64,000 nucleotides of DNA from an uncultured bacterium (GTDB lineage: Bacteria > Verrucomicrobiota > Kiritimatiellia > RFP12 > UBA1067). Position 1 is the first letter of the stretch. Every line of letters begins with the position of its first letter. This document shows, piece by piece, positions 4,590 through 45,440 of this stretch. The DNA lies in contig CACZCD010000001.1 in NCBI GenBank assembly GCA_902779565.1, positions 3,929-67,928 of the forward strand, given 5' to 3'. The position numbers and the translations under genes are program-made. Under the pieces are notes generated by a model. It saw only the letters and a program-made list of their open reading frames with translations, was not told where the DNA came from and searched no databases.

Positions 4590-4605
4590 AGTCTCCTTGA
4601 CGGTC

Positions 4606-4640
4606 AGTTGGTAGTTGATAGTTGGTGGTTGATTTGTCTC
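4606..4640 (-). repeat. Heptamer tandem repeat forming the 5' leader of the nucleotidase gene (mRNA sense ACCAACU/AUCAACU x4)
   Basis: The plus strand reads AGTTGGT AGTTGAT AGTTGGT GGTTGAT TTGTCTC. This is near-identical in architecture to 25361-25400, upstream of the esterase gene. Confidence 0.8.
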
Positions 4641-4705
4641 ACGCAGAGGCGCAGAGGACGCAGAGAGAAATTTCGGAGTTGTGACTCCGCTCAAAAAATA
4701 ACATG

Positions 4706-4777
4706 GATTCCACCTTTCCACTTTTCCACCTTTCCACCATTCCACCTTTCCACTTTTCCACCTTTCAACCTTTCAAC
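4706..4777. repeat. Nine exact-length 8-bp tandem units NNTTCMAC (minus-strand sense GTKGAANN)
   Basis: gaTTCCAC ctTTCCAC ttTTCCAC ctTTCCAC caTTCCAC ctTTCCAC ttTTCCAC ctTTCAAC ctTTCAAC. The U32 stop codon (4765-4767) lies inside unit 8. Confidence 0.9.
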
Positions 4778-6045
4778 TTTTGGATGAGGAACACCTTGTC
4801 GCCCACGCGGCAGCGCGGGGCCGGGAACGTCACCCACGTCCCCTTCTCGGCCACCTCCGGTACTTCCTCGTCGCGCCGGAGCGAAGCGATGCGAAACTCC
4901 TGTACGCCCGTTGTGGGACCTTGGATCTGGACGAGATCACCCACTTTTACGGCGGCATCCTGAATCTTCACCTGCGCAATCTCCGCCTTCAGGAAATAGT
5001 CGATCACGATGCCGACGTGGCGTTTCACCTCCTGCGCGGACGAATTGGGCGTATCAGTGAACTGGTCCACTCCCGGACGCCCAAAGTAGAGGCCGCGCGA
5101 ATATTCGCGATGGAAGAAACGCCGCGTCCGCGCGACCAGACGCTCCGCCTGCTCGGGCGTATACGTGCCGGCCAACACAGCATCCACCGCTTCGCGGTAA
5201 GCGCTCACCACTGTCATCACATATTCGGCGTTGCGGGCGCGTCCCTCGATCTTGAACGACGCGATGCCCGCCGCCATCAGCTGATCGATGAACGGCAGCG
5301 AACAGAGGTCCTTCGCCGAGAGCACGGTGTGGGGCGTCACAAAGAACTCCGTCTCCGAATCATGCACGGGCTGCCCCTCGCCATCCGAATAGAGATCAAC
5401 GGCCTTTAGAAGAAACGTGCGCCGGCAGGGCTGGCGACACTCGCCGCGGTTCGCGCTGCAGCCGTAGGCGTCGTGGCTCATCATGCAGCGTCCGCTCTCC
5501 GCCACGCATTGCGCGCCATGCACGAAGCACTCCACCTCCAGGCCGCCTGCCGCCACGATGCGCTTCACCTCGTCAAGCGTGCATTCGCGCGCCAGCACCA
5601 CGCGCGAAGCGCCCTGCTCCTTCACGAAGCGCACCGCCGCCGAATTCGAGATGCTCATCTGCGTGGAGACGTGAAACCGCACGCCGTGTTTTCGGCACAG
5701 CGCCACCACGCCCCAGTCCGCAACGATGAACGCATCCACATACGGCTTCGCCGCCATGATCATCCGCTCTACTTTCTCCGTCTCATCCTCAAACAGGATC
5801 GCGTTGAGCGTGAGATAACGCTTCACCCGCCGCGGTGCCGCTTCGCACCGCCGCTGGATCTCCGGCAGGTCTTCCACCGTGAAGTTCACGCCCGCGCGCT
5901 GGCGCATGTTGAATTCGTCCAAGCCGAAATAGACGGCGTCCGCCCCCGCATCAATTGCCGCCTGAAGGCAGGTCATGTCACCGGCCGGCGCCAAGATCTC
6001 AGGCGCCTTCAGGCCGCAACCAACATCGCGCACATCCTGCTGCAT
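4765..6045 (-). CDS. Peptidase U32 family protein (collagenase-like / RlhA-TrhP-UbiU-type)
   Basis: LAPAGD...AIDAGADAVYFG...HVSTQMS...VLARE...CFVHGAQC...CSANRGECRQPC, the typical U32 pattern. Start placed at ATG 6045 (MQQDV), just after the prfA stop. Confidence 0.88.
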   Translation of the reverse strand: MQQDVRDVGCGLKAPEILAPAGDMTCLQAAIDAGADAVYFGLDEFNMRQRAGVNFTVEDLPEIQRRCEAAPRRVKRYLTLNAILFEDETEKVERMIMAAKPYVDAFIVADWGVVALCRKHGVRFHVSTQMSISNSAAVRFVKEQGASRVVLARECTLDEVKRIVAAGGLEVECFVHGAQCVAESGRCMMSHDAYGCSANRGECRQPCRRTFLLKAVDLYSDGEGQPVHDSETEFFVTPHTVLSAKDLCSLPFIDQLMAAGIASFKIEGRARNAEYVMTVVSAYREAVDAVLAGTYTPEQAERLVARTRRFFHREYSRGLYFGRPGVDQFTDTPNSSAQEVKRHVGIVIDYFLKAEIAQVKIQDAAVKVGDLVQIQGPTTGVQEFRIASLRRDEEVPEVAEKGTWVTFPAPRCRVGDKVFLIQKLKG

Positions 6046-7652: not shown

Positions 7653-7660
7653 GTGAAGAA

Positions 7661-8833: not shown

Positions 8834-8850
8834 GATGTTTATCCTTTCTT

Positions 8851-9558: not shown

Positions 9559-9571
9559 TGCATTCCCCCTT

Positions 9572-11634: not shown

Positions 11635-11638
11635 TATG

Positions 11639-11686
11639 TCACCACTGCTTCATGATATTCTCGGCACGGCGGATGTAGGCATGCCC
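11639..11686 (-). pseudogene. Relic 3' end of a glycyl-radical enzyme gene (16 codons)
   Basis: The minus strand reads GHAYIRRAENIMKQW-stop, preceded by an in-frame TAA. The intact enzyme ends DAYIRRAENVMKGW-stop at 17821-17865. Confidence 0.75.
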
Positions 11687-11717
11687 TTATTGTGCCACAT
11701 TGGCGCATCAGCCACTT

Positions 11718-14700: not shown

Positions 14701-15062
14701 CGCTGCGGCCAGCTGAAGCCGTCGCCAAACACCGTCCCCGGCCCCGTGACCGCAACGTTCGTGGCGCAGAGCGCGAACACCACCGCGCTCCACGTCCCCT
14801 CGGAACACGGAAGTTCGGTTACGCGGTAGTCCTTGATGTTCGCAGACCCTTGCAGAACTGCGCCTTCGGCAAGATGCAGCTCCACATTGCTCTTGAGGTC
14901 AAGCTGTCCCACAAGATGCCGCCCGGCCGGCACAACCACCCGTCCACCGCCAGCCGCGTTCGCCGCATCGATCGCGGTCTGCCAGCGCGCGGTTTCGAAA
15001 CCATCTGCAAAAGCGGCCAGCTTGATTGCGCCGGCCGCCGCTACGCAAAATGCACGCAACAT
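11718..15062 (-). CDS. Secreted multidomain glycoside hydrolase: N-terminal GH28-like beta-helix, C-terminal CBM-like domain
   Basis: NDGFDIEAKNVLIEDCDVDSGDDAFCIKS (GH28-type catalytic Asp pattern). Signal peptide present. A C-terminal NGDFE... galactose-binding-like module. ATG at 15062 overlaps the upstream stop (TGATG); the ORF-track start at 15065 is GTG. Confidence 0.8.
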   Translation of the reverse strand: MLRAFCVAAAGAIKLAAFADGFETARWQTAIDAANAAGGGRVVVPAGRHLVGQLDLKSNVELHLAEGAVLQGSANIKDYRVTELPCSEGTWSAVVFALCATNVAVTGPGTVFGDGFSWPQRPKDVKGCREGLNARGLFFGDCKGVRLEDFTLRDAACWGIVFKRCEDVVARRVKVDSHADSFNDGFDIEAKNVLIEDCDVDSGDDAFCIKSNDPDYTVENVLIRRCVGRSQCNVFKIGTASHGTVRNIRFEDCRCEAARRDCLSKNPKHRGKNRYFWRATKRAPFGVANSAISVECVDGGMVEQVRYSGITFENGAKVPIFVRGGTRTGRSTGVSPGKSYILRDIVIENVTGEADGVVASSITGVDGCRAKNVTLRNVKITCHGAGEEKSKEAMEKPVPKLPGAYPDAAVSFGSSILPAFGLYIDCADNVKLEDVKFTLADGDVDLRPAIFWTAHSDADRTVESVDGKPRFVPWSRRLARIRSDDRRFSFRFFGELPGGADLSTCDVFISSEGWGGELRAPLVRDEMFFTLPENADSGCMTVSLVRRSDGTAIHEKKYRYGVETVQEIKHPERRKRLNNYVTEVLDAKMPGEETSGEFLFETRRHGWVFIGVSGADSAEVSLDGQCVITNGTPALETVRLVSQGEHQLAVKGAGRIAVREIPMIICYAPYARKLPLKESYDWDFYWRYVVPSVTTMNGGPAPKESIGRLHDLGRQWLANVRTLGTAERMSRNIGRSTGLNQRACDGITLDEQGLRPKNDKTNMEFIDAIEKFCAERDTERTVCTWVIASPTRRPIESEMFAAIANAGHGRGLLLNERYMRTKKTEAEALAAIESMIVGVGLYRDTHPFCQDCLGVVSGNFTGLLQLSIAHHPEVDYNAYLAMQIHALATDPRCDGLVAAGYWGAHHADDDTLRWSFRLMRHYCIEGRTDSIAEQYGLRYIPGHLRNGDFEHAFGPWKVHGDVTLDECPKLAEWAENRYLAGRTGCGDTFASFKRGETANNLTQSVCGLVAGRTYVLRYATFDVDDMKAGKANPREIPLKAIFKDGVRLLPELSWSYVDRSTKVSKKKGKYGRINLHQVVFAAERGETELVITDEAASKGERLGVNFVCIRPYLP

Positions 15063-16402
15063 CACTCAATGCTCCCCATGCAGACGAGACGCACACCGTG
15101 CGTCTCGCTTCTATACGTCGGAGAGCCGTTCCCACGCGAAGCAGACCTGCATAAAGAAGCCGCACTTCCGTAGTAACCTCCACGCACAACGCGCATAGAT
15201 GAAGTGCCACGCCGCGGAGACTGGCCATCGTCGGAGACGTTTGCCGCTCCGTTGAGGCTGGAGCAGTCGTCCACATAGTAGTCGTGGCACCATTCCCCCA
15301 AGTTGCCATGCATATCGTAGAGTCCCCAACTATTCTTGCCGTACGACCCGACAGCCGCAGTTGCGTTGTTGGTGGTGCAGAACCTGTCGGGAGCGTCCGT
15401 ACCGTTCACAAGCCCGCCGTTGTACTTGTACCGCCCTGGCAGATTGGAATCTTCTTCCGCATTAGAGTACGGAGTGCCGTCGCCCCATTTGCCTTCGCCG
15501 TTGCCGGCGCGGCAAGCGAATTCCCACTGCGCTTCCGTGGGCATGTCGAAGTCTATGCTTGTCCGCTTGCGAATCATTCCGAGAAATGAATTCTTATGTG
15601 GTGCTTGGGGCCAGTAGGTGGTCTTGTCTGGTTGCACCTGGCTGGTAGTCACCCACCCGGAACACCTGATCTCGGTATAGGCAACGCGATCTACCGGACG
15701 CATTGCTTTGTATGCCTCGTTCGTGTATATGCTGGGGCACTTCCCCATCACGTGATACCATTGCGTCTGGGTCACGGGGAATACGCCGATGTAGTAGTCG
15801 TTCGAGAGCGTCACGAGATGCGGAATTTCGTTTGCCGAGTTGCGCCCAGCCTCGTTGACGCTGCCCATGGTCCACTCCACGTTCTTCGCGTGGATGCGGC
15901 GCATGACCATCTTCGTGGTGCGGTAGTCGTCGTTGCCAAGAAGGCCGCCGGGAAGGAACTCCTCGGACGGATAGTACGCCTGCGTATTTGTCGATACGGT
16001 TGTGATATCCACCACCATGTAGTCCGGCGGCGCGTTCGTCTCCCAGGCCGTGAGAACGGCGCGGATGTTGTTCGCGGGAACCCTGTGTCCCGGCCACGAG
16101 AGGTCGGGCCGCCATTTGATGGAGTAGCGCGACTTGCCGCCAACGATACGGAACACGTCGCTGTCCTCGGTGAAGTTCTGGATGTGTTCGCCGCCGATCG
16201 ACACCCATCCGTTCGCGCCGTTCGTCTGCACGTCAAGCGTCACCACCGCCGGAGACTGCGTGAGTGAATACTCGATGGTTACCGTTCGCCTGACTTGCCG
16301 CACCGTCATGTCTGTGACCTCAGGAAGGTCCGCAATTCCGGAGACGGCGGCGCACGCCGTAATTGCCGCCGCGAATGCCATTTTCATCTTCTGTGCTTTC
16401 AT
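15062..16402 (-). CDS. Secreted SUMF1/FGE-sulfatase domain protein with an N-terminal Ig-like region
   Basis: WGLYDMHGNLGEWCHDYY...RVVRGGYYGSAASLCRSASR, the formylglycine-generating-enzyme fold signature. Signal peptide present. Confidence 0.85.
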   Translation of the reverse strand: MKAQKMKMAFAAAITACAAVSGIADLPEVTDMTVRQVRRTVTIEYSLTQSPAVVTLDVQTNGANGWVSIGGEHIQNFTEDSDVFRIVGGKSRYSIKWRPDLSWPGHRVPANNIRAVLTAWETNAPPDYMVVDITTVSTNTQAYYPSEEFLPGGLLGNDDYRTTKMVMRRIHAKNVEWTMGSVNEAGRNSANEIPHLVTLSNDYYIGVFPVTQTQWYHVMGKCPSIYTNEAYKAMRPVDRVAYTEIRCSGWVTTSQVQPDKTTYWPQAPHKNSFLGMIRKRTSIDFDMPTEAQWEFACRAGNGEGKWGDGTPYSNAEEDSNLPGRYKYNGGLVNGTDAPDRFCTTNNATAAVGSYGKNSWGLYDMHGNLGEWCHDYYVDDCSSLNGAANVSDDGQSPRRGTSSMRVVRGGYYGSAASLCRSASRGNGSPTYRSETHGVRLVCMGSIE

Positions 16403-16423
16403 TGTTTTTCCTCTTTGATTGGG

Positions 16424-16621
16424 TTACCTGATGCAGACCGAAATTCCACGGAAGAGCCCGTCGCTGTTAAAGTCGAATCCGGAGACCGCCGTTTCCGTGC
16501 AGTATCTGGTATCAAGCTCGAAACCGAACAAAGCCACGCCTGGCATCACCACGTCGTCTGACGCGGTGGAGGCCGCCATCAATGCCGCCGTTGCGGCAAG
16601 AACTGCAATCTTCTTCATCAT
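16424..16621 (-). CDS. Small secreted protein (65 aa)
   Basis: MMKKIAVLAATAALMAASTASDD... signal peptide. GGAGAGAG lies upstream. The ATG overlaps the upstream stop (ATGA). No homology that I recognise. Confidence 0.5.
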   Translation of the reverse strand: MMKKIAVLAATAALMAASTASDDVVMPGVALFGFELDTRYCTETAVSGFDFNSDGLFRGISVCIR

Positions 16622-17685
16622 GCTCTCTCCTTTTGTTTTAATGCTTCTGCGAAAAGATCTATACCCTTGAGGTTGAAGTCGAGGTTCGCCTGCGAACAGC
16701 AGTTGGCCCATGGGGCCATGAGAAAACCGAGGAGGTGTTCGCTCAATATGTGCTTGCGGCAGTACGGCACGAGCGCGCCGATGATGTCGTCGCCGCCGGT
16801 CTTCTGCCGTTTGCGCGCACCGGCGCCCGCCCAGTTCGTGCCGCACGGTATCTGGTCGAAGCCAGCCTTCTCAAGCGCATCGAACGCAGCAAGGCGGTGC
16901 GCGTGCCTGTTGATCTTCGGATCGAGCGACCATTGTCCGAGCTGTTCGTCGTAGTACCAGTTGGACTGCACCACGCTTCTCGGGCAGCGCGTGAAGAACT
17001 CCTCGTGCTCCCAGCCGAAATCACTCCACACCCAGGCGCGCGAGCCAAGCTCCTCCACGCAGCCGACGGTGTAGAGGAAATCGCGCCACCACATGTCGCC
17101 CTGGCGCATGACGAAGTAGTCGCGCCCAGGCGCAAAAAGCGCAGTCTCCTCGTCCCAGCCGAGGTGGAAGAAGCGAGGACGCGAGAAGATCTCCGAAACG
17201 TCACGGATGACGTCTTTGGCCACAATATACCATTCCGGCAGCGTCAACATCCTATGATAATCCTTAAGCCAGCCGTCGTGCGTAGCGGAGAAGTTCAGCT
17301 TCGGGATCGGCTCAAGGCCTGCGGTCCTTAGGCGCTCCACCTCCGCGCGAAGCTTCTCCGCCGACCAGCTGCCCTCAATCGCCAGCTCGGGATGGCTGGG
17401 ATAGATGAGACCCTCGCCGATATCAATCACGATCATGTTGAGATTGCGCTCAACCATCCTATCCGTCACGCGCCGCCAAAGTTCTTCCTTGCATCGAAGG
17501 TTCAGGTCTGGAGTCAGGCGTTTCGGCAGGGAATGCCAAAGATGGCGCGGCAGCCACTCGCCCCACATGTTGTGGCCAAGATGCATCAGCATGGCGCGGA
17601 TGGGTTCCTTCCCGCCTGCATAAGCACCGCCCGCCCCGCGCGTTCCGCGCGAGGCATCGGTGTTGCTATTGATGTCAGTTGCCAT
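16618..17685 (-). CDS. TIM-barrel glycoside-hydrolase-like protein (GH20-like motifs)
   Basis: 355 aa. IRAMLMHLGHNMW and FHLGWDEE resemble the GH20-type R-x-LD and H-x-G-x-DE regions, so the functional call is tentative. Confidence 0.6.
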   Translation of the reverse strand: MATDINSNTDASRGTRGAGGAYAGGKEPIRAMLMHLGHNMWGEWLPRHLWHSLPKRLTPDLNLRCKEELWRRVTDRMVERNLNMIVIDIGEGLIYPSHPELAIEGSWSAEKLRAEVERLRTAGLEPIPKLNFSATHDGWLKDYHRMLTLPEWYIVAKDVIRDVSEIFSRPRFFHLGWDEETALFAPGRDYFVMRQGDMWWRDFLYTVGCVEELGSRAWVWSDFGWEHEEFFTRCPRSVVQSNWYYDEQLGQWSLDPKINRHAHRLAAFDALEKAGFDQIPCGTNWAGAGARKRQKTGGDDIIGALVPYCRKHILSEHLLGFLMAPWANCCSQANLDFNLKGIDLFAEALKQKERA

Positions 17686-17820
17686 TTGCTTTATGCCGCT
17701 TGATCCTGATGCAACTCTGGTTGTTCCTTAATTGGCGCGTGTTATATCCCGACCGCATCCTATTTCGCAATCCCGATAGAAAGGTGAATCCGCCATCTCG
17801 CATAGGACAGTCATTGTGTG

Positions 17821-23786: not shown

Positions 23787-25346
23787 TCAGTCGCCGATGT
23801 GGAAGGCGCCGAGCGGGAGATTGACGTCGTTGTAGATCGAGCCGAACCACGGCGACGAATACAGGTAGCGGAGCTTCTTCGGCTCCTTCACGCCCGGTGC
23901 GGAGACGGCGATCCGGGGGCCGTCCAACGTGCCGTGGTACACGGGTTTCCCGTCGCGCTTCGAGGCGACGGCGTTCTGGATCTTCGCCGGCACGAACTTC
24001 CCGTCGGCACCCGCGATCTCGAAGCCGTTCGAAAGCGAACGGTCGGCGTTGTACACGTAGAGACCCTTCGCATGGTTGAACTCCATCACGAACTTGTCGC
24101 CTTCGATCTTCCAGCTCTTGAGCGTCGGCGACTCGTCCTCAATGTCCGTAAAGCCATAGTCACGCTTGAGGGCATGGAGCGCCAGGCGCTTGGCGACAAG
24201 TTCCTTCTCGTTCGGGTGGATATCGCGCAGATTGCCGAGGTCGTTGATGACGGCCATCGCCGCGTTCTTCTCCTCGGCGACGAACTTCGCCTGCGCCTGC
24301 TGGATGTACGGGATGATGTCGGTGCCCCACGGCGCGAGCTGCACGAAGTAGAGCTTGAGATCGGGATTCTCGAAGCACTTCGACCAGCCGTTGTACAGCG
24401 CGTGCATGATGGTATCGTAGCGCGCATAGTCCTTGGCGTTGCTGCAGCCCTGATACCAGATGAAACCGCGCATCGCGAACGGCGTCCACGGTGCCACCAT
24501 CTCGTTCCAGAGCGCCATCGGCTGATCACGGAACGTCTGACGCGAATAGCCAAGTTCCTTCATCCGCTCCGGCTTGAAGTTGGCGACCTCCGGCTGGTAG
24601 GCCGCCTCCTTTTCGCATCCCTTCGTCGCGGCAAAGCCCTCACGCGGCGTCCACGGTTCGGCGCGCGTGCCGCCCCAGTAGCTACCGACGATGCCCACGG
24701 GGATCTCCAAGGCCGCATAGAGCTCCAGCGCATAGTACACGCCCATCGCGGAGAAGCTCGGTGGTTTCGCGAGGTTCTCCGGCGTGAACGCCTTCCATGC
24801 GACCGGATAGTCGGCCTTCGCCTTCGGCGCCGCCGCAGCCTTATAGTTGGAGCAGTAGGCGAACCGTATGAACGGGCGGTGCGTCACCTGCGCCACCATC
24901 GCCCCCTGACGGTCGCGGAAGCGCGGGCTGCCGCCAACGAGCGGAAACTCCGTGTTGGACTGTCCACAGCAGTACCACACCTCGCCCACGAGAACATCCT
25001 TGACCTCCACGATGTCGTCGTCGGGGATGGAGGCGAAGAGCCCCCACAGGTTCGTCCACCGTGCATTCTCGTCGTTCCAGGCGCTCACCTTGAGCGTACG
25101 CCCTTCCTTCGAAGTCTCTAACGGCGCAAGATCCACACGCCATTTGCCGGTGGCGTCCGCCTTCGCCGTGCGCGTCTGCCCGGCGAATTCCACCGTCACC
25201 TCTTCGCCGGCATCCGCCCAGCCCCACACCGGCACGTTCATGCCACGCTGAAGCACCATGCCATCCGCAAACGGGGTGCCGAGCTTCAGTCCCGCCTGCG
25301 CCGCCAGCGCCGCCAACGCCGCCGATACAATCATGAGTTTTTTCAT
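23787..25346 (-). CDS. Secreted sialate O-acetylesterase (SASA/SGNH-type carbohydrate esterase)
   Basis: Signal peptide, the GQSN catalytic block (VWYCCGQSNTEF), and length and architecture typical of 9-O-acetylesterases. Confidence 0.85.
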   Translation of the reverse strand: MKKLMIVSAALAALAAQAGLKLGTPFADGMVLQRGMNVPVWGWADAGEEVTVEFAGQTRTAKADATGKWRVDLAPLETSKEGRTLKVSAWNDENARWTNLWGLFASIPDDDIVEVKDVLVGEVWYCCGQSNTEFPLVGGSPRFRDRQGAMVAQVTHRPFIRFAYCSNYKAAAAPKAKADYPVAWKAFTPENLAKPPSFSAMGVYYALELYAALEIPVGIVGSYWGGTRAEPWTPREGFAATKGCEKEAAYQPEVANFKPERMKELGYSRQTFRDQPMALWNEMVAPWTPFAMRGFIWYQGCSNAKDYARYDTIMHALYNGWSKCFENPDLKLYFVQLAPWGTDIIPYIQQAQAKFVAEEKNAAMAVINDLGNLRDIHPNEKELVAKRLALHALKRDYGFTDIEDESPTLKSWKIEGDKFVMEFNHAKGLYVYNADRSLSNGFEIAGADGKFVPAKIQNAVASKRDGKPVYHGTLDGPRIAVSAPGVKEPKKLRYLYSSPWFGSIYNDVNLPLGAFHIGD

Positions 25347-25360
25347 GTTAATCCTTTTTT

Positions 25361-25433
25361 AGTTGATAGTTGATAATTGATGATTGGTGGTCTAGTCTCA
25401 ACCTTTCCACTTTTCCACCTTCCCACTTTTAAC
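25361..25433. repeat. Composite intercistronic repeat: heptamer leader (AGTTGAT x4-5) plus octamer units (NNTTCMAC x5)
   Basis: The plus strand reads AGTTGAT AGTTGAT AATTGAT GATTGGT GGTCTA then GTCTCAAC CTTTCCAC TTTTCCAC CTTCCCAC TTTTAAC. It abuts the AI-2E stop at 25435 and the esterase RBS. Confidence 0.85.
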
Positions 25434-25434
25434 T

Positions 25435-26571
25435 TCAGATAACACCTTTGATGTACCGTTCCTTCACCGTGCGCCAAAGCACCAGGCAGAACGCCGAAAG
25501 CGGGATGGCGAGCAGGAGCCCCAGGAGCGACTTGAACACCGCGCTCCAGAACAGGAACGAGAAGATCACGCCCGCAAAGCCAAGTCCTGTGCGCTGGCCC
25601 TGGATGAGCGGCGTGATGGCATAGCCGTCCGCGATCTGGCCGGCCGCCCATACGCTCGACACACCGATGAGCCGCAACAGACTGCCACCATCGCCGAAGA
25701 AGGCGAGCAGGAGCGCAAGCGGAAGGCAGATTACAGTACCGAGGAGCGGCACAAGGTTGATCGCTCCCAGCGCAAAGCCGATCACGAAGCCGTAGGGCAG
25801 CCCCACGAGAACGAATCCGAGGCCGTAGAGCACGCCTTCCACAAGGCAGATGATCACCTGCCGCTGGAAAAAGGAGACGATGATGTCCGTGAACGTATCG
25901 ATCTGATCCGCCACAAACCCGCGCGTCTCCTCCTTCAGGAACGGCATCTGCCGCACACAGTCCTCGCCGCGCAGCGCCGGCTTCATCAGGAAGTACACGA
26001 AGAAGATCATCGTCACAACCCACCCGACAAGACCCATGAGGTACTTCACCACACTGAAGCTCACCTTCACCGCCTTTCCGCCGTACTGCGCGCCGAGCTG
26101 GGAGAGGATATCGTGCGAGAACTGCGCGGGATCCGTGAAGAACAGAAGCGCGGAGTCCGGCACGCCGAGCTTCACAAGCCCCGCATGAAGCCCCGGATGC
26201 TGGGCCTGGAACCATTCGCTCGCGCGCGTCACAATCGTTGGCGCAGCGGTGATGAAGGCCGAGAGCTGCTCGATCAGCATCGCGCCCGTGAGCCACAGCA
26301 CGAGACCCGCCGGCACAAGGACCGTGAGGGACATCGCCACCAGCGCCAGGGTCGGGTTGTGCAACCGCTTCAGGAACCATCCGTAGTACGGCTTGAAGAA
26401 CATCGAAAGGAGCAATCCCATGATGACCGGTGTCAGCGCGGGCGCCGTCAGGTTCAGGAGCTTCAACACAAACCAGCCAATACCGAGCGCAAAGGCGACC
26501 ACCAGCGCCACCGCCAGAGACGTGACGCCCGCCGCCGCCCATTTCTTCTGCCGATTGCTCAAGTCAATCAC
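25435..26571 (-). CDS. AI-2E family transporter (PerM/UPF0118)
   Basis: 378 aa multi-TM protein with the family-typical C-terminal block (GLPYGFVIGFALGAINLVPLLG...). The start appears to be GTG at 26571, overlapping the upstream stop. Confidence 0.85.
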   Translation of the reverse strand: MIDLSNRQKKWAAAGVTSLAVALVVAFALGIGWFVLKLLNLTAPALTPVIMGLLLSMFFKPYYGWFLKRLHNPTLALVAMSLTVLVPAGLVLWLTGAMLIEQLSAFITAAPTIVTRASEWFQAQHPGLHAGLVKLGVPDSALLFFTDPAQFSHDILSQLGAQYGGKAVKVSFSVVKYLMGLVGWVVTMIFFVYFLMKPALRGEDCVRQMPFLKEETRGFVADQIDTFTDIIVSFFQRQVIICLVEGVLYGLGFVLVGLPYGFVIGFALGAINLVPLLGTVICLPLALLLAFFGDGGSLLRLIGVSSVWAAGQIADGYAITPLIQGQRTGLGFAGVIFSFLFWSAVFKSLLGLLLAIPLSAFCLVLWRTVKERYIKGVI

Positions 26572-28046: not shown

Positions 28047-28079
28047 GGGGACGCGGCGCGAACGCGCAACCCTCGCTAA

Positions 28080-33297: not shown

Positions 33298-33660
33298 CTA
33301 CCAGGAGCGGTAATAGACCGGCGGAGGCGGCGGGGGCGGCGGCGCCACCACAACCGGGGCCGGGGAATAGACCGGGGTGCTATAGACCGGCGTGCTATAG
33401 ACCGGTGTGCTATAAACCGGCGTGCTATAGACTGGCGCAGGCGCCACGACAACTGGCGGACGAACGATGCTGTTCACGATCGCCGCAGTGCCGAGAGCGG
33501 CTCCCGCAATGCCCCATCCGCAATGGTGGTGATGATGATGGTAGCCATGGCCACCATGGAACCTAGGACCGCCATGGAACCCACCATGGAACCCCGGACG
33601 GGCGAACATCACACCTGCCGTTGCCACGACTGCCAGCATTACTATCAGTTTCTTGTTCAT
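33298..33660 (-). CDS. Small secreted His-rich / Pro-rich repeat protein
   Basis: 120 aa. Signal peptide, GFHGGFHGGPRFHGGHGYHHHHHHC, a hydrophobic segment, (PVYST)x5, and a polyproline run. Confidence 0.7.
   Translation of the reverse strand: MNKKLIVMLAVVATAGVMFARPGFHGGFHGGPRFHGGHGYHHHHHHCGWGIAGAALGTAAIVNSIVRPPVVVAPAPVYSTPVYSTPVYSTPVYSTPVYSPAPVVVAPPPPPPPPVYYRSW
33362..33435. repeat. 15-bp tandem repeat (NGTGCTATAGACCGG, 4 full units plus 1 partial) encoding PVYST units
   Basis: Read directly inside the His-rich protein gene. The repeat is in frame (15 bp equals 5 codons). Confidence 0.9.
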
Positions 33661-33792: not shown

Positions 33793-36700
33793 TTAGGGCT
33801 TTACGCGCACGGTTTCAGCGGTTGAGTGTGCCGTGAACTCGGGCGCGTACATGCATTGGATCGTCGCAAGCCCGCCGATAAACACGCCGCGCTGCTGCAC
33901 GCGATACGACGTCTCAAGAACGAACACGCCCTTGTTGAGACAGTCGATGTAGTAGTGCGTGGCCGTATCCTTCGTGGACTGATAATAACCCACGCCATCG
34001 CGCCAGCGGTACGACGACAGCACATCCTCCGGCTCCGCGCACGCAGGCCGCTCGTCAGAGAGATGCACGAACTCGTACGTGCGGTCGCTCGTGATCTCAA
34101 GCCGCGCCACGATCTCGTCGCCCGGCTCAAGCACGCCATCGATCGACGTGAGCCGTGTCCCATCCGCGCCCTTCACCTTCTTGTAGTACTTCTTCTCCAC
34201 CCGCAACTCCTTCGGCTCGTGCGCGCGTACCTTAAGGACATCCTCAAAGTACGTCCAGTGGACGCCGCCCCACGCAACGCCCTTCTCGCCCGCACCCGTA
34301 AACGTGATCTCGCCCATCTCGGGCCTGATCTGCGCCGCGGCGTAGCGGTGCGAATACATCCCCGTGCCCGCCTCGGCGTTCGCCACCGGCACCTTCTCGC
34401 CCGCCAGCGTGACCTCGGCCAGCTTGTCGCCCGCCAGCAGATCCGTCCCGCCGCCCAGAAGGAGCGCATAGATCGCGTCCACCGTCGCGGCGGTCGTCGT
34501 CCAATCCTGCGTCTGCTTCTGCTTCAGGAGCCACACGTTGCAGGCATCTGCGCTCTCCTCGTCGCGCGTCACCTCGCGGAACGCCTCAATGATCAGCGCC
34601 TGCGTCGAGACGGGCGCGGCGAACACGCTGCACGAGAAGAAGGACGACCTCTTCCAGTATAGGCCGAGTTCCTCTGAAAGGACGCCCCGCTCCTTGATCG
34701 ACGCCATGATCTTCCGCGCGAACTTTTCCTCGCCCATGCGCTTCAAGGCGATGGCCGCCAGCGCCTGCGAGCTGAGGCCGAAGTCCGTCCACTCCTCCTT
34801 GAGATGCTTGACGAAGAGCTTTGCCGGCTGCGCATCCTTCGCGGCGGCGACGCCCTTGAACGTATGGAGGTAGAGCCAGCGAATGTCGAAGCCATCCACA
34901 TGGAACTTGATGCCCAGTCTCTTCGCCTCCTTGAGCCGCTCCTTCACATCCTCAGAAACGAACGCGTCAAGTGCTTCCACCGCCTCCGCAAAGAAGTCGG
35001 GATACGTCCTCTGCGCCAGGAAGTTGAGCCGCGCGAACCCCGTCAGGATATAGAGCGAGATGCCGGGCGCGGACGGCCCGCCCGGGAACCACGGCCAGAG
35101 TCCGCCGCCACACCGCGCGAGTCGCAACTTCTCAAGGCACTTTTCCTGCTCACCCGCCAGACGGTCGGCGGCGAAGAGTTCACCAAGCCGCGCGCGGGCT
35201 GCGCTTTCGTGCGCCGCCTCACGGACCCACGGCGTCGCTTCAAGCGCAATCGCCTTGAGGTGTTCATCCGTCTCAAGCGGGCTCTTCAGCGTTTCGCCGC
35301 CCGCCGCCTTCCACGCGTCGAACGTGGCGCGGATGCGCGGATCGGCGTTTGCGATGTACTGTCCCAGCGCGTTCGCATAGTAGCGGCTGAACGTCTGCTC
35401 GCAGCATTCGTGCGGGAACTCCATCAGGTACGGAAGCGACAACACCGCGTACCACGCCGGACGCGACACGGCGCGCACCGTGAGATCCTGATGGCGGACC
35501 GTCTCAGACCCCTTGCTCGCCAGCAGGTTCTCGAACCGAAACGATTTCGTCGCCGCGCCACGCACGTTGAGCTGCACGGCCTCGCGCACCATCACGCGGC
35601 GCGCCAGCACCGGCAGCACGCCCTCTTCGCCGTCCGCGAACGCCGCGCCCTTCGCGCGCGCGACATATTTGAGATAGCCGCACCCATCCGGGATCCGCAA
35701 CGGGAACTCGAACGTCTTCGATTCGTGCGGAACCAGGTTGAAAGGTTGAAAGGTTGAAGCGTTGAAAGGTTGAAGCGTTGACGGGTTGGCATTTTCAGCA
35801 GAACTTTTCAACTCTTCAACCTTCAACTCTACAACTCCCTGCTGCGGCGCGTCCTCGGTGTTCGTCACCTTGACGGCAAAGAAGAAGTTGTCACCTTCGC
35901 GCACGAAACGCGGTGCGTTCGGTTCGCACATGAGCGGCTTCGTCGTCACGATCTCGTTGTTGCGGAAGATGTCGCCGCGAAGCGCGTTGTCATGCGCGAC
36001 CATCAGGAACTTCCAGCCCGTGAGCGCGTCCGGCACCGTGAACGAGAACGACACCTTCCCGTCCGCATCCGTCTCCAGGTTCGGGAAGAAGAACGCCGTC
36101 TCCTTCAGGTTCGTGCGCGGCGGCGCATCCGGTTCCTTCTCGGACTTCGCGGATGGTGCAGCACCACACACCGCCACCGTTTCTTCTTCCAAGACGCACC
36201 TTTCATTCATCACGCCCATCCCGGCCGCGGCGGACTTGCAGACCATGCCGCCCCGTCTTCGCAGTCTGCCATACTCGTACAGCGACCGCCACGAAGGCCA
36301 TCGGAAGTTGGAGAACCACGTGGACTTGCTTGGGAACCGACCGCCGAGATCCATCAGCTCCGTGGTCGTATTCTGGATTGCCGGACTTCCGAGCCAGCGC
36401 GTCCAGGGCGTAAAGTGACTTGAAAAACCGAGCGACACATCATGCCATTTGTACGCATCGAGCGAACGGTCGTACATGAAAGCGAGCACTTCCGCAGGGC
36501 CCGACACCTTGAACGTCCATATTTCCTTGTTGCCGGGATTGAGCTTGCTCGTCAGGTGCTCCGCCGTGATATCCAGATACTTGTTGTCCCACGGCACATT
36601 CACGCAGGTGCTGTCGCAATAGATGCGGTTCTCGCGCACGAAGGTGGTCTCAATCCTCACTTCGCCGCGATGCTCCTCCTGGATCGGCAGCTCGAAAAAC

Positions 36701-39663: not shown

Positions 39664-39670
39664 GCACGCT

Positions 39671-43523: not shown

Positions 43524-45440
43524 TCACAACGCGTCTGTCATGAATGTATGCGCCACCGTCCAAGGCGCGCTCTTGATCCGTTTCATGCGCATCAAAAGCG
43601 AAAGGCGGTGGCGTTCAAGCTCCGCATCGCCCCGTGCCGGCAGTTCGCCGAGACGGCGTCGGATCGCATCGCCCCATAGCCGCCGCAGAAAATCCTCAAG
43701 AATGCGCGCTGGGTCCAACTCGGAAAGCGATGCGCGCTCCCGCGACAGGAACACGCCCTCCAAAAGCGCACCATCCGCCGCGGAAAGCGTCCCGCGGAGT
43801 TCCGCCATCGCCTGCTCGTTCCCGCGCGTCTCCTGCACATAGGCGTGAACGAACCCGCACGTCAACGCATGCTGGAAAATCGTGTCGGGCGCATAGGATT
43901 CCAGCATCTCCGTCAGCTGCCCATCCGGTCCGTTTCCGAACAGAAACTCCATGAGTGCCATCTCTGTCCGAGGCGGCGGATTGTTCTCCGGAGCCGCAGC
44001 GTCTTCCGAGGGTTGAGAGTTGGGAGTTGAGGGTTGAGGGCTTGCCGCGCCGAAGCCTTCGGCGGAGGCGGGTTGCGTACTTCCTCTTCCCTCTTCCCTC
44101 TTCCCTCTTCCCTCTTCCCTCTTCCCTTTCTCTAGATCCTCCTCAAGGGCGGCGACCGGTATCTTCAGAAGTGTGGAAGCCTCCTGCAGCAAACTGGCGC
44201 GCATGACCGCGCTCGAACTGCACCTGACCAACGCCAAGACAGCGCGCGCCGCGCGGGAGATCGCATCGTAGGAGTCAGGTGTCTGCTCCATCGCGCGGGC
44301 GATGCGTACTTGAAAGGCGACCAGCGACTCAGCCGAATCAAGGCAGGCCTGAAACGCCGCCGGACCTTTCGTGCGAAGCAGAGAATCTGGGTCTTCGCCC
44401 GGCGGAAGACTTGCCACGCGCACCAACAATCCGGCGGCCAGCATCTCGCCGCCCGTGCGAATCGCCGCCTTCTGTCCAGCGGCATCGGCGTCAAAGACCA
44501 GCACGGCGGCATCGGCGACCTTCTTCAGGATCTGGACATGCTCCTTCGTGAAGGCCGTCCCCTGCGACGCGATCGCACGGGAGAATCCCGCCGCATGGCA
44601 GCGGATCACATCGATCTGCCCTTCGCAGACGATGGCCTCGCGAACGGGCTTGGCGTTGGCGATCTTCCCCGCCGCAAGATCGAACGCATAGAGAACATCC
44701 GACTTCCGGAAGATGAGCGTCTCGGGCGAATTGACGTACTTGCCGCCGCGCATCTTCGTCTTATCCGTCTCAAGCGTCCGTCCCGAGAACGCGATCACGC
44801 GTCCAGACCGGTCACGGATCGAGAACATGACGCGTCCGGCGAACGGCGAGTACCAGCGTCCGCCCGGATACTTCGGCGGACGCAGCACGCCGGCCGCCTC
44901 AAGCTCTTCGGTGGTGAAATGATGCTTCTCCGCCCATTTGAGCATCGCCTCGGCCTGCTGCGGCGCGTAGCCGATCTGGAACTGCTCCGCGATCTCGTCC
45001 GGGATGTCGCGCGACGCGAGATAGTTGCGCGCACGCGCCGCCTCAGCGGCCGTCTTGAGGCAACGCCGGTAGAACGCCGCCAACTCGGCGTGGAGCACAA
45101 GTTGGCGCTTGCGCGCGGCCGCTTGCGGATCGCTATTCGTCTCCTCGATGGTGATGTTCGCCGCCGCCGCCAGCTTCTTCGCCGCCTCCACGAAGCCCAG
45201 CCCCTCGTACTTCATCACGAACTTGATCACGTCGCCGGACTCGCCGCAACCGAAGCAGTGGTAGAATCCCTTCGCCGGCTGGATGTTGAAACTCGGCGTC
45301 TTTTCATGATGAAACGGGCAGCAGGCCTTGTACGACCCACCTGCCCGTTTCACTTGGATCCCGTAGCTGGCGATCAAATCTGCAAGGTCCGTACGGGCCT
45401 TGATCTCTTCGATCGTCTGCTCCGAAATGCCGAAGGCCAT
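43524..45440 (-). CDS. dnaG: DNA primase
   Basis: Zn ribbon CPFHHEKTPSFNIQPAKGFYHCFGCGESGD, a Toprim domain (EGQIDV...VFDADAAG), and a C-terminal helicase-interaction region. Confidence 0.95.
   Translation of the reverse strand: MAFGISEQTIEEIKARTDLADLIASYGIQVKRAGGSYKACCPFHHEKTPSFNIQPAKGFYHCFGCGESGDVIKFVMKYEGLGFVEAAKKLAAAANITIEETNSDPQAAARKRQLVLHAELAAFYRRCLKTAAEAARARNYLASRDIPDEIAEQFQIGYAPQQAEAMLKWAEKHHFTTEELEAAGVLRPPKYPGGRWYSPFAGRVMFSIRDRSGRVIAFSGRTLETDKTKMRGGKYVNSPETLIFRKSDVLYAFDLAAGKIANAKPVREAIVCEGQIDVIRCHAAGFSRAIASQGTAFTKEHVQILKKVADAAVLVFDADAAGQKAAIRTGGEMLAAGLLVRVASLPPGEDPDSLLRTKGPAAFQACLDSAESLVAFQVRIARAMEQTPDSYDAISRAARAVLALVRCSSSAVMRASLLQEASTLLKIPVAALEEDLEKGKREEGRGKREEGRGSTQPASAEGFGAASPQPSTPNSQPSEDAAAPENNPPPRTEMALMEFLFGNGPDGQLTEMLESYAPDTIFQHALTCGFVHAYVQETRGNEQAMAELRGTLSAADGALLEGVFLSRERASLSELDPARILEDFLRRLWGDAIRRRLGELPARGDAELERHRLSLLMRMKRIKSAPWTVAHTFMTDAL
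44012..44126. repeat. Heptamer tandem repeats in the dnaG linker: (GTTGRGR)x4, palindrome GCCGAAG-C-CTTCGGC, (TCTTCCC)x5
   Basis: Read directly. It encodes EKGKREEGRGKREEGRGSTQPASAEGFGAASPQPSTPNSQPSE in the primase frame. Confidence 0.9.

What the first reader, a model, noticed from the sequence alone, without database searches (positions are those of the whole stretch)
25361..25433. Second copy of the octamer-plus-heptad intercistronic element, before the sialate O-acetylesterase gene
Immediately after the AI-2E transporter stop (25435) the mRNA strand reads GTTAAAA GTGGGAAG GTGGAAAA GTGGAAAG GTTGAGAC. It then reads …ACCACCAAUC AUCAAUU AUCAACU AUCAACU followed by AAAAAAGGA and the ATG. Aligned on the plus strand, AGTTGATAGTTGATAATTGATGATTGGTGGTCTAGTCTCA matches AGTTGGTAGTTGATAGTTGGTGGTTGATTTGTCTCA at 4606-4641 apart from one extra heptad. 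Both copies precede genes for exported hydrolases and both start at the stop codon of the preceding gene. That is hard to ascribe to chance.
Basis: seen in the sequence. Interest (0 to 1): 0.5.

Follow-up and report, generated by a model that had tools for sequence, protein, structure and literature searches.

The report
Polar tandem-repeat spacer between two genes
The 88-base gap between a transporter gene and a sialate esterase gene in this Kiritimatiellae genome holds two back-to-back arrays of short repeats (an 8-mer without C, then a 7-mer without G); this is a local example of a widespread, already described but functionally unexplained kind of bacterial intergenic repeat, not a new folded RNA element.

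Summary
On the mRNA (minus) strand the AI-2E transporter stop codon runs into five C-free octamers (25434-25395). After a CTAG joint come four G-free heptamers plus ACTAAAAAA (25391-25355), then the Shine-Dalgarno AAGGA and the esterase ATG.

A sister composite lies at 4592-4781, and related ones lie inside two coding sequences. Five relatives carry the element at the same junction. Four of them, at about 90-93% DNA identity, differ by whole repeat units; the 97%-identical one has identical counts. Two other lineages have only an 18-19-nt spacer, so the element is lineage-specific and dispensable.

It does not fold significantly, has no Rfam match, and its two arrays are no more complementary than unrelated arrays. 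The link to exported enzymes is coincidental.

Across about 115 loci from many phyla, strand-pure 6-10-nt arrays follow one rule: the C-free array sits after the stop codon and the G-free array before the start codon (37 G-then-C pairs against 1). This polarity was published in 2015 for Xanthomonas and Nostoc heptamers, and TAACTGA repeats are a close parallel.

Best reading: slippage-generated simple-sequence repeats that serve as an unstructured spacer without start codons. Function is inferred, not shown. It is a new member of a known kind; interest is moderate to low.

The parts
25435..25437 (-). TGA stop codon of the AI-2E transporter gene (25435-26571). It lies inside the first, degenerate repeat unit (TGAAGTTA / AGTTAAAA).
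25395..25434 (-). C-free octamer array on the mRNA strand: AGTTAAAA GTGGGAAG GTGGAAAA GTGGAAAG GTTGAGAC (five units, outer two degenerate). It is part of a 42-nt run without C in the mRNA sense (25396-25437).
   Evidence: Unit number varies from 4 to 6 among orthologues.
25392..25395 (-). CTAG joint between the two strand-pure tracts. This is the only place where G and C meet; orthologues have GAC-NAG-NCC here.
25355..25391 (-). G-free tract on the mRNA strand: heptamers ACCACCA ATCATCA ATTATCA ACTATCA, then ACTAAAAAA.
   Evidence: There are 2 to about 9 heptamers in orthologues.
25344..25356 (-). Shine-Dalgarno-like AAGGA (25356-25352), spacer TTAAC, and the ATG (25346-25344) of the SASA esterase gene (23787-25346). 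The AAAGGA box is shared with relatives that lack the repeats.
25373..25401 (-). Sigma-70-like site TTGAGA-17 nt-AATTAT (9 of 12 matches) inside the element. It is not conserved in orthologues and is listed only as a candidate.
4707..4781 (-). Sister copy, C-free octamer array: GTTGAAAG x2 then GTGGAAAR-type x7. It overlaps the last codons and the TGA (4765-4767) of the Peptidase U32 gene.
   Evidence: At this junction relatives have about 3 units (L116) or 10 units (L118/L119).
4638..4706 (-). Sister copy, non-repetitive spacer with a small hairpin CGGAGT-CACA-ACTCCG (4674-4689) and a CTCTGCG-type 8-9-mer x2.9 (4641-4665).
4592..4637 (-). Sister copy, GAGAC joint and G-free heptamers (AAATCAACCACCAACTATCAACTACCAACT), then GACCGTC AAGGAG ACT before the ATG (4589-4587) of the 5'-nucleotidase gene.
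35735..35837 (.). Related composite inside a coding sequence (A2M/MG2-like ORF 33793-39699, minus). The plus strand reads GGTTGAAA x6, a loop, then TTCAACYC x4. The arms are complementary and the insert is in frame.
   Evidence: (z -3.7)
44008..44127 (.). Related composite inside the DnaG-like ORF (43524-45440, minus): GAGGGTT x4.7 then CCTCTTC x6.4 on the plus strand. It is translated as a low-complexity linker.

Best explanation
What it is. The spacer is a pair of abutting simple-sequence-repeat arrays. A C-free 8-mer array starts in the stop codon of the upstream gene. A G-free 7-mer array ends at the Shine-Dalgarno box of the downstream gene. It is a Kiritimatiellae member of the known class of polar, strand-pure 6-9-nt intergenic repeats (cyanobacterial STRR, GGGNATC of Xanthomonas and Nostoc, TAACTGA of Beggiatoaceae, Cyanobacteria and Bacteroidetes).

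Shown. (1) It sits at the same junction in five relatives, and four of them differ from the window by whole 8-nt or 7-nt units, which is the signature of replication slippage. (2) Two related lineages lack it and keep an 18-19-nt spacer with the same AAAGGA box, so it was inserted or expanded between stop codon and ribosome-binding site (or lost there) and is dispensable. (3) It has no significant fold, and its two arrays are not complementary. (4) Arrays of this kind obey a general rule: C-free after the stop codon, G-free before the start codon, on the sense strand.

Inferred. The two genes are co-transcribed and the element is part of the mRNA. Each tract uses only three letters, so neither can fold on its own. 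The G-free tract can contain no ATG, GTG or TTG and no Shine-Dalgarno mimic. It therefore provides an open, single-stranded landing (standby, S1-type) region in front of the esterase ribosome-binding site. The C-free tract is a tolerated trailer that may have started as slipped copies of the stop-codon/Shine-Dalgarno region. Copy number may tune expression of the downstream gene but does not switch it.
For: Anatomy. Flanking genes.

Orthologues. L122-L125 (window DNA identity about 90-93% over the aligned blocks) carry stop-AGTTAAAAA-(GTGGAAAR)x3-5-GTTGAGAC-NAG-NCCACCA-(ACTATCA-type)x2-9-ACTAACAAAAAGGAYTGAYATG, and the indels are whole units. L127 (97% identical) has the same unit counts and one substitution. 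L116/L117 and L118/L119 have TAA-ATAG/GAG-AAAGGATTCATTGATATG with no repeats.

The U32 junction behaves the same way: about 3, 10 and 9 octamers in L116, L118 and the window.

No structure. Folding z-scores are +0.23 (mRNA strand) and -0.12 (plus strand). In a duplex-energy test the cognate arm ranks 28th of 37 (orthologues 24-29, sister 16). Rfam finds nothing.

General rule (own gene calls). After stop: 46 G-type against 9 C-type, 21 against 2, and 9 against 1. Before start: 38 C-type against 8 G-type, 12 against 4, and 8 against 2. Adjacent pairs are G-then-C 37 times against 1. G-arrays lie a median 32 nt from the 5'-side gene and 138 nt from the 3'-side gene, whatever the gene orientation.

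In relatives, CAACT-type heptamers run up to the start codon with no Shine-Dalgarno box (L125 response regulator, L120 acyl-carrier-protein-like gene, L116 radical SAM). Of 17 G-free arrays that end 12 nt or less from a start codon, 15 leave no Shine-Dalgarno-like 4-mer.

Literature. The same polarity and the same length variation between close relatives were reported for GGGAATC/GGGGAYT (PMC4692102). TAACTGA repeats lie directly upstream of start codons, relatives have shorter repeat-free spacers, and S1/Csp/CsrA binding was proposed (PMC4679880). A Nostoc (TTCAAAA)3 repeat upstream of recF was suspected of enhancing translation (bioRxiv 10.1101/2022.06.06.494920).

Own knowledge, not tested here: C/A-rich elements upstream of ribosome-binding sites act as translational enhancers in enterobacteria (the gltI target of GcvB), and the G-free TMV omega leader enhances translation in E. 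coli.
Against: There are no expression data, so co-transcription, leader function and any tuning effect are all inferred. The leader rationale explains only half of the rule; I have no supported reason why trailers should be C-free. The same G-then-C order occurs in all three coding-sequence composites. That hints at a generating mechanism rather than selection on untranslated regions. Relatives manage with an 18-19-nt spacer, so any benefit is small. The 97%-identical relative has identical copy numbers, so slippage is not fast. The gene calls behind the statistics come from a crude self-trained ORF scorer. The loci were ascertained through one octamer pattern.
Confidence: 0.55

Rival explanations
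1. Rho-entry (rut-like) insulator. Any transcript that reads toward a gene, in sense at its 5' end or antisense at its 3' end, first crosses a G-free, YC-containing, unstructured tract where Rho can load. Transcription goes on only if a ribosome initiates at once. The C-free half is simply the other strand's tract.
For: The rule is symmetric on both strands and independent of gene orientation, so one DNA-level rule would cover both contexts. The G-free tracts (AUCAACU, CUUUCCAC) fit published rut features: poor in G, C>G, rich in YC, unstructured (PMC9499579).
Against: The G-free tract here is only 37 nt on the mRNA strand and 42 nt on the other strand, shorter than typical rut sites (about 60-80 nt; own knowledge). 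It lies inside a probable operon, where termination would be polar on the esterase gene. Cyanobacteria, which lack Rho (own knowledge), show the same polarity (L002, L038; Nostoc in PMC4692102).
Confidence: 0.12
2. Array of binding sites for a sequence-specific RNA- or DNA-binding protein (CsrA-, Csp-, S1- or regulator-type). The protein would control translation or stability of the downstream cistron, so repeat-bearing genes would form a regulon.
For: The motifs are regularly spaced, and GGA occurs in every GTGGAAAG unit. CAACT-type heptamers recur before several unrelated genes in this clade. The same proposal was made for TAACTGA (PMC4679880) and for Nostoc heptamers.
Against: Unit sequences differ widely between junctions in the same clade (GTGGAAAG, GTTGAAAG, TGAGGGA, GGCAGAGA, AGAGGAT, GTGGTTA; ACTATCA, ACCAACT, CTAACGA, CGACTAA). 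They turn over completely at one orthologous junction (DUF481 to radical SAM). What is conserved is the three-letter composition, not a motif. GTTGAAAG variants lack GGA.
Confidence: 0.12
3. Imperfect long hairpin between the two arrays (GGUGG with CCACC, GUUGA with UCAAC). It would act as attenuator, RNA processing or stability element, terminator, or a device that brings stop and start codons together for translational coupling.
For: About one third of composites elsewhere are true inverted repeats (cognate rank 4 or better in 12 of 37), including the one in the A2M gene (z -3.7). Orthologues L123 and L125 fold somewhat better (z -2.6 and -1.4).
Against: The window copy has z +0.23 and -0.12. 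Its arms pair less well than random array pairs (rank 28 of 37), as do those of L122, L124 and L125. There is no stem followed by a U-tract. Unit-number changes in the two arrays are not coordinated (L123: 4 octamers and about 2 heptamers; L124: 4 and about 9).
Confidence: 0.06
4. Product of a dedicated DNA process rather than in-place slippage. One form is a foldback/MITE-like mobile element. Another is a scar of break repair in which C-free repeats were added to both 3' ends and the ends joined, a geometry like a telomere fusion.
For: The G-then-C order is strict (37 to 1), holds when the arms are not complementary, and holds inside coding sequences. G-array-plus-CTATCAA composites appear as in-frame insertions (radical SAM gene of L124/L125; the A2M and DnaG genes). 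Both arrays, read away from the flanking genes, are C-free. Filled and empty alleles exist. The two window copies share the GAGAC joint.
Against: There is no target-site duplication and no terminal inverted repeat. The specific joint was found only at the orthologous junction. No enzyme candidate is encoded nearby. The independent positional rules alone predict about 26 to 1 for pairs (derived). Unit-step variation fits slippage.
Confidence: 0.08
5. Internal promoter for the esterase gene: the TTGAGA of the last octamer as -35 and AATTAT in a variant heptamer as -10.
For: The consensus scan finds TTGAGA-17-AATTAT (9/12) on the mRNA strand against 0.2 expected. TTGAGAC is conserved in 4 of 5 orthologues; L125 has TTGGGAC.
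Against: The -10-like hexamer exists only in the window and L127; the other orthologues have ACTATCA there, and the spacing to TTGAGA varies with heptamer number. The sister copy has no such site. Relatives without the element have no room for a promoter in 18-19 nt.
Confidence: 0.04
6. Phase-variable contingency locus: rapid gain and loss of units switches expression of a surface or secreted enzyme.
For: It is a tandem repeat next to genes for exported enzymes, and unit number differs among relatives.
Against: The arrays lie between stop codon and ribosome-binding site, not in an ORF or between promoter hexamers, so unit changes cannot shift a reading frame or promoter spacing. The 97%-identical relative has identical counts. 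There is no association with exported proteins. Rehm et al. reached the same conclusion for GGGAATC.
Confidence: 0.03

Closest known systems
GGGAATC / GGGGA(C/T)T heptamer repeats of Xanthomonas and Nostoc (Rehm et al. 2015, PLoS One, PMC4692102)
   Same: Tandem 7-nt, G-rich, strand-pure units in intergenic regions. [quoted passage not shown] Some overlap the stop codon. Length and sequence vary between close relatives at the same junction. There is no link to gene function or to mobile elements, and the function is unknown.
   Different: The unit here is an 8-mer, GTGGAAAG, with GG rather than GGG tracts, so the four-G3-tract quadruplex rationale does not apply. Here the G-array is joined to a second, non-complementary G-free heptamer array. 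The host is Kiritimatiellae (PVC group).
TAACTGA direct repeats of Beggiatoaceae, Cyanobacteria and some Bacteroidetes (MacGregor 2015, Front Microbiol, PMC4679880)
   Same: Heptamer direct repeats in forward orientation a few nucleotides upstream of start codons, often replacing the Shine-Dalgarno box. A reversed set occurs right after a stop codon. Some sets lie in ORFs. Relatives have shorter, repeat-free spacers. The downstream gene functions are unrelated. Units in this clade (CTAACGA, CGACTAA, CAACTAA, ACTATCA) resemble TAACTGA.
   Different: The heptamers of the finding are strictly G-free, whereas TAACTGA contains a G. Here they end before a retained Shine-Dalgarno box and are coupled to an upstream octamer array.
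Cyanobacterial STRR (short tandemly repeated repetitive) heptamers (Mazel et al. 1990; own knowledge)
   Same: Intergenic tandem heptamers in many copies per genome, with unresolved function.
   Different: Different units (CCCCAGT, TTGGTCA, CAACAGT) and a different phylum.
C/A-rich translational enhancer elements upstream of ribosome-binding sites (gltI and other GcvB targets) and the G-free TMV omega leader (own knowledge)
   Same: A G-poor, C/A-rich, unstructured tract directly upstream of the ribosome-binding site. This is what the heptamer tract may work like.
   Different: Those are not tandem arrays generated by slippage. No enhancer activity was tested here.
Rho utilization (rut) sites (features as in PMC9499579)
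   Same: G-poor, C>G, YC-containing and unstructured.
   Different: The tract is much shorter than typical rut sites, lies inside an operon, and was not tested. The same repeats occur in Rho-less cyanobacteria.
REP/BIME and MITE-type intergenic repeats
   Same: Short intergenic repeats after stop codons, often in inverted pairs.
   Different: There is no palindromic unit, no GTAG/CGTC tag, no terminal inverted repeats, no target-site duplication and no dispersed identical copies.

Membership tests
Polar strand-pure 6-9-nt intergenic simple-sequence repeats (STRR / GGGNATC / TAACTGA class) | Head-to-tail copies (3 or more) of a 6-9-nt unit | tested here: met
   TRF reports period 8 x3.4 and period 7 x3.1-3.4. 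Read by eye there are 5 octamers and 4 heptamers.
Polar strand-pure 6-9-nt intergenic simple-sequence repeats (STRR / GGGNATC / TAACTGA class) | [quoted passage not shown] | tested here: met
   The octamers start in the stop codon and the heptamer tract ends 8 nt before the ATG-proximal Shine-Dalgarno box. The general rule is reproduced and published in PMC4692102.
Polar strand-pure 6-9-nt intergenic simple-sequence repeats (STRR / GGGNATC / TAACTGA class) | Unit number and sequence vary between close relatives at the same junction, and repeat-free relatives exist | tested here: met
Polar strand-pure 6-9-nt intergenic simple-sequence repeats (STRR / GGGNATC / TAACTGA class) | Many sets per genome | tested here: inconclusive
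   Only a 64-kb window is available: 2 intergenic and 2 coding composites. There are several more in about 90 kb of relatives. The whole genome is not available.
Quadruplex-forming repeats sensu Rehm et al. | Four or more consecutive G3+ tracts | tested here: not met
   Only GG tracts and a single GGG.
Structured cis-regulatory RNA / Rfam family | Match to a covariance model, or a fold better than shuffles with covariation | tested here: not met
   No gathering-threshold hit in the window, and only noise at E up to 10. Folding z +0.23 and -0.12. Arms are not complementary.
Intrinsic terminator | G+C-rich stem-loop followed by a U tract | tested here: not met
   None in 25250-25550. Only a weak candidate in the sister spacer at 4674-4689.
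Rho utilization site | C>G, G-poor, YC-rich, unstructured tract | tested here: met
   There is no G in 37 nt of the mRNA strand and it contains UC/CC dinucleotides. Features are as described in PMC9499579.
Rho utilization site | Length sufficient for the hexamer (about 60-80 nt) and Rho-dependent 3' ends downstream | not testable with these tools
   The tract is 37 nt. There are no transcript data.
MITE / foldback transposable element | Terminal inverted repeats, target-site duplication, and dispersed near-identical copies | tested here: not met
   Arms are not complementary. There is no duplication at filled against empty sites. The joint occurs only at the orthologous locus.
Phase-variable contingency locus | Repeat placed so that unit changes shift a reading frame or promoter spacing, with length heterogeneity within populations | tested here: not met
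   It lies between stop codon and Shine-Dalgarno box. The 97% relative has identical counts. Within-population heterogeneity was not testable.
Upstream small ORF / leader peptide with ATGA coupling | Conserved ORF through the element ending at the downstream start codon | tested here: not met
   That frame is open only in the window and L127, and closed at -14 in L122-L125.

The most novel reading that the evidence does not exclude
The strict G-then-C order of strand-pure repeat arrays could be the footprint of one conserved process, not of separate selection on leaders and trailers. The order is 37 to 1. It holds on both strands, with non-complementary arms, across at least eight phyla, and inside coding sequences. 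One candidate process is a bipartite three-letter module that controls what happens to any RNA leaving and entering genes (Rho, ribosome or nuclease access). The other is a DNA-level mechanism in which C-free repeats are synthesised onto both 3' ends of a break or gap and then joined. The finding would then be a typical product of an undescribed bacterial repeat-generating or gene-boundary system.
Probability: 0.12. Interest if true: 0.75.

Novelty: new member of a known kind. Interest (0 to 1): 0.35.

Why it matters
For this locus the practical message is negative: it should not be annotated as a riboswitch, sRNA, terminator or mobile element. The apparent link to exported hydrolases is not real.

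More broadly, the locus gives a clean natural series at one gene junction: an empty site, a short form, a long form and different units. That series could be used to test experimentally what polar heptamer/octamer repeats do. The question has been open since STRR sequences were described in 1990 and was left open by both 2015 surveys.

The analysis also extends the published polarity rule from Xanthomonas and Nostoc to Kiritimatiellae, Acidobacteriota, Bacteroidota, Cloacimonadota and other groups. It shows that the partner array is usually not complementary, which argues against hairpin or quadruplex explanations as the general one.

Tried and rejected
- Structured RNA. MFE against shuffles on both strands for both copies gave z between -0.1 and +1.5. 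Rfam gave nothing at the gathering threshold or at E up to 10. Rejected.
- Hairpin between the arrays. The cognate against non-cognate duplex test placed the finding 28th of 37. Rejected for this copy, although true for about one third of composites elsewhere.
- Intrinsic terminator. None found.
- Promoter. One 9/12 site, not conserved.
- Leader peptide / ATGA coupling. The ORF is not conserved.
- Association with secreted proteins. No enrichment.
- Dispersed element. A profile from six orthologues (nhmmer) and a junction-pattern scan of the JGI metagenome collection found only orthologues.
- Is GTGGAAAR a specially favoured unit? The genome-contig scan gave more than 115 loci against about 9 expected from base frequencies (my estimate), but no control scan was possible there. 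In viral contigs the pattern gave 10 loci against 6, 7 and 5 for permuted or mixed units. There is therefore no evidence that this unit is special; tandem octamers in general exceed random expectation.
- CsrA-type GGA array. GTTGAAAG variants lack GGA and units differ between junctions. Not favoured.
- Quadruplex. There are no G3 tracts.
- Literature searches for the exact repeat strings found nothing. General searches were unproductive until.
- Attempt to separate selection from mechanism using composites far from genes. Only one such pair existed. Uninformative.
Full report
**1. What is in the sequence**

The window has 61% G+C and nearly all of its genes lie on the minus strand. The finding lies in the 88-nt gap between two minus-strand genes. 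The upstream gene is 25435-26571 (Pfam AI-2E_transport, E 5.6e-30). The downstream gene is 23787-25346 (Pfam SASA, sialate O-acetylesterase family, E 5.5e-09).

Tandem Repeats Finder reports both arrays.

The most compact description is compositional. From the stop codon the mRNA has 42 nt without a single C. Then comes CTAG. Then come 37 nt without a single G, up to the Shine-Dalgarno AAGGA.

The sister locus has the same layout on a larger scale. It lies between a Peptidase U32 gene (4765-6135) and a 5'-nucleotidase/metallophosphatase gene (2859-4589). Nine octamers overlap the last codons and the stop codon (4707-4781). A 69-nt non-repetitive spacer with a small hairpin follows. Then come GAGAC, G-free heptamers (4606-4637) and an AAGGAG box.

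**2. Organism and orthologous loci**

Homologues of the esterase are labelled Kiritimatiellae MAGs. I fetched contigs encoding close homologues, and one further relative came from a junction-pattern scan of the metagenome collection. Window DNA identity to these contigs is about 90-93% over the aligned blocks, and 97% for L127.

At the same transporter-to-esterase junction the element is present in L122, L123, L124, L125 and L127 with the same architecture. In L122-L125 the unit numbers differ: 4 to 6 octamers and about 2 to 9 heptamers. The alignment gaps are whole units. L127 has the same counts as the window and one substitution.

L116/L117 and L118/L119 (esterase 92% and 89% identical) have no repeats at all. 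Their spacer is 18-19 nt, TAA-ATAG-AAAGGATTCATTGATATG, with the same AAAGGA box.

At the U32 junction, L116 has about three degenerate octamers in a 22-nt spacer. L118/L119 have ten GTTGAAAR units running up to the start codon and no heptamers. The window has nine octamers, a spacer and heptamers.

The element is therefore orthologous within a subclade. It changes by unit steps, the pattern expected from replication slippage. It is dispensable. It is not fast-changing over very short distances.

**3. It is not a folded RNA, terminator, conserved promoter, small ORF or mobile element**

- Folding: z-scores are +0.23 and -0.12 for the finding, and +0.23 and +1.52 for the sister.
- Rfam: no gathering-level hit in the whole window, and only noise at E up to 10.
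- Arm pairing: I compared the duplex energy of each composite's own two arrays with that of arrays taken from other composites. The finding ranks 28th of 37, its orthologues rank 24-29, and the sister ranks 16. About a third of composites elsewhere are real inverted repeats.
- Terminator: no terminator-like site in the element.
- Promoter: there is a TTGAGA-17-AATTAT site, but the -10-like hexamer and the spacing are not kept in orthologues.
- Small ORF: a frame that is open through the element and ends at ATGA is closed in L122-L125.
- Dispersal: a profile built from six orthologues hits only orthologues strongly and the sister only piecewise (E 0.04-0.4). The joint GAAAGGTTGAGACNNGNCCACCAA occurs in the JGI metagenome collection only at the orthologous junction.
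- No target-site duplication is visible.

**4. It is one instance of a general, polar class**

Relatives carry similar composites at other junctions. Each has a different C-free unit after the stop codon (TGAGGGA, GGCAGAGA, AGAGGAT, GTGGTTA). Each has CAACT-type G-free heptamers (ACCAACT, CTAACGA, CGACTAA, CAACTAA) before the start codon. These precede cytoplasmic proteins too, such as a pseudouridine synthase, a response regulator and an acyl-carrier-protein-like gene.

At the DUF481-to-radical-SAM junction, four relatives have four unrelated sequences, three of them of the same repeat type (L116, L118, L125). The window itself has a plain G+C-rich stem there instead.

Composites also sit in frame inside coding sequences. 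In the window these are the A2M-like gene at 35735-35837, where L116 has other units at the same codons, and the DnaG-like gene at 44008-44127. In L124/L125 it is the radical SAM gene.

They come from Acidobacteriota, Bacteroidota, Cloacimonadota, PVC bacteria, Cyanobacteria, Firmicutes, Actinobacteriota, Proteobacteria, Leptospira and others.

On these loci I used a crude self-trained gene caller:
- The G-rich array lies next to the gene on its 5' side (median 32 nt) rather than the gene on its 3' side (138 nt), whatever the gene's orientation.
- For all strand-pure arrays of period 6-10 within 100 nt of a gene end, those after stop codons are C-free on the sense strand (46 against 9, 21 against 2, 9 against 1). 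Those before start codons are G-free (38 against 8, 12 against 4, 8 against 2).
- Adjacent arrays of opposite type are ordered G-then-C in 37 cases against 1. Most composites fill the whole intergenic gap.
- Of 17 G-free arrays that end 12 nt or less from a start codon, 15 leave no Shine-Dalgarno-like 4-mer.
- Signal-peptide-like N-termini are not enriched downstream (20% against 27%, p = 0.37).

"Starts at the stop codon" is a property of the class.

**5. What is known**

Searches for the exact repeat strings found no paper.

Two 2015 papers describe the class. Rehm et al. (PMC4692102) reported GGGAATC and GGGGAYT heptamer arrays in Xanthomonas and Nostoc. [quoted passage not shown] Their length varies between close relatives, they are not tied to gene function or mobile elements, and their function is unknown. 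Quadruplex formation was proposed. MacGregor (PMC4679880) reported TAACTGA heptamers directly upstream of start codons in Beggiatoaceae, Cyanobacteria and Bacteroidetes. These often replace the ribosome-binding site, relatives have shorter repeat-free spacers, and S1, Csp or CsrA binding was proposed.

A Nostoc study suspected a (TTCAAAA)3 repeat upstream of recF of enhancing translation. STRR heptamers of cyanobacteria are the historical precedent (own knowledge).

The finding is thus a new member: new units, a new phylum, and an octamer-plus-heptamer pair. It fails the quadruplex criterion because it has no G3 tracts.

**6. How it most likely works**

Shown: origin and evolution by unit-step changes, dispensability, lack of structure, and the positional rule.

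Inferred: the two genes are co-transcribed, since relatives have an 18-19-nt spacer, and the element is an untranslated spacer in the mRNA. Each tract uses three letters and cannot fold on its own. The G-free tract cannot contain a start codon or a Shine-Dalgarno mimic. It keeps the region in front of the ribosome-binding site open, as C/A-rich enhancers and the TMV omega leader do (own knowledge). In relatives such tracts even replace the Shine-Dalgarno box. The C-free tract may have begun as slipped copies of the stop-codon/Shine-Dalgarno region; the L116 U32 junction reads GTAAGGTT AAAGGGTT GAAGGTTAG ATG.

I put 0.55 on this package. The identity and origin parts are much firmer than the functional part.

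Rivals:
- A Rho-entry insulator. It fits the strand symmetry and rut features. However, the tract is short, it lies inside an operon, and Rho-less cyanobacteria show the same polarity.
- A protein-binding array. Units are too variable between junctions.
- A hairpin. Rejected for this copy.
- A dedicated DNA process or mobile element. There are no hallmarks, but this best explains non-complementary arms and the coding-sequence cases.
- A promoter, and phase variation. Both are weak.

**7. Caveats**

The gene calls are heuristic. The loci were ascertained with one octamer pattern. No control pattern could be run on the genome collection. In the viral collection GTGGAAAR is not more frequent than permuted units (10 against 6, 7 and 5), so I make no claim that this octamer is special. 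I cannot explain why trailers are C-free.

**8. Verdict**

Novelty: new member of a known kind. Interest: 0.35. The open question worth pursuing is the strict G-then-C polarity of the class.

Noticed in passing
window 35735-35837 (inside ORF 33793-39699, minus): A G-array/C-array composite (GGTTGAAA x6 ... TTCAACYC x4 on the plus strand) lies in frame inside a 1968-aa A2M/MG2-like gene. It is translated as ...ELKVEELKSSAENANPSTLQPFNASTFQPFNL... and forms a strong hairpin (z -3.7). Relative L116 has different units (CCAATCCT x4) at the same codons, so this is a hypervariable protein loop made of 8-nt repeats.
   Followed up: partly
window 44008-44127 (inside ORF 43524-45440, minus): GAGGGTT x4.7 followed by CCTCTTC x6.4 lies within a DnaG-primase-like gene. 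It encodes a low-complexity linker (KREEGRGKREEGRG ... PQPSTPNSQPS).
   Followed up: partly
L124 100-175 and L125 1605-1680, against window 27743/27746: The radical SAM/B12-binding gene of two relatives carries an in-frame 57-nt insertion made of AGCGGACAGAGGAT x2-3 plus CTATCAA x4. This is the same G-then-C composite, and it is absent from the window.
   Followed up: partly
window 7433-23284: A 15.9-kb block is absent from relatives L118/L119/L124, where yqeY and rpmE are neighbours. Its cargo is two HU-like proteins, a glycyl-radical enzyme with its activase, GH28, an FGE-sulfatase-domain protein, Fic and an AraC regulator. No integrase or transposase was seen.
   Followed up: partly
window 22615-22700, 23015-23260 (ACGGAC) and 7456-7588 (GTCCGT): About 40 copies of the hexamer ACGGAC are spaced 11 nt apart (one helical turn). 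They are in inverted orientation at the two ends of the 15.9-kb block. A GTCCGT run also follows yqeY in L125 (6185-6260). They could be protein-binding arrays; their function is unknown.
   Followed up: partly
window 22851-22910: A 60-nt G-free tract on the plus strand contains a 16-nt repeat (TCCTCCAATCMCCMAM), in the convergent gap between the AraC gene and yqeY.
   Followed up: no
window 10500-10640 (minus sense): Three similar hairpins of the type GCAGGGTGCGA...TCGCACCCTGC lie in the 430-nt gap between genes 9877-10374 and 10804-11634. There is no Rfam match at the gathering threshold.
   Followed up: no
window about 33300-33660 (minus): A small gene encodes a signal peptide followed by His-rich, (VYSTP)x5 and poly-Pro repeats. 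The 15-nt tandem repeat at 33367-33437 encodes the VYSTP units.
   Followed up: no
L116 7299-7361; L118 7277-7335; L125 1215-1305; window 28047-28079: The DUF481-to-radical-SAM junction has four unrelated spacer sequences in four relatives. Three are inverted heptamer arrays (for example GTGGTTA/CGACTAA and CAGATGA/ACTGTCA). The window has a plain G+C-rich stem instead.
   Followed up: partly
L006, L015, L025, L049, L064, L070, L090, L105: Eight contigs labelled 'Alistipes onderdonkii H07668-L1_cleanbin_000053' have 63-69% G+C and many GTGGAAAR arrays. They are probably mis-binned contigs from another organism.
   Followed up: no
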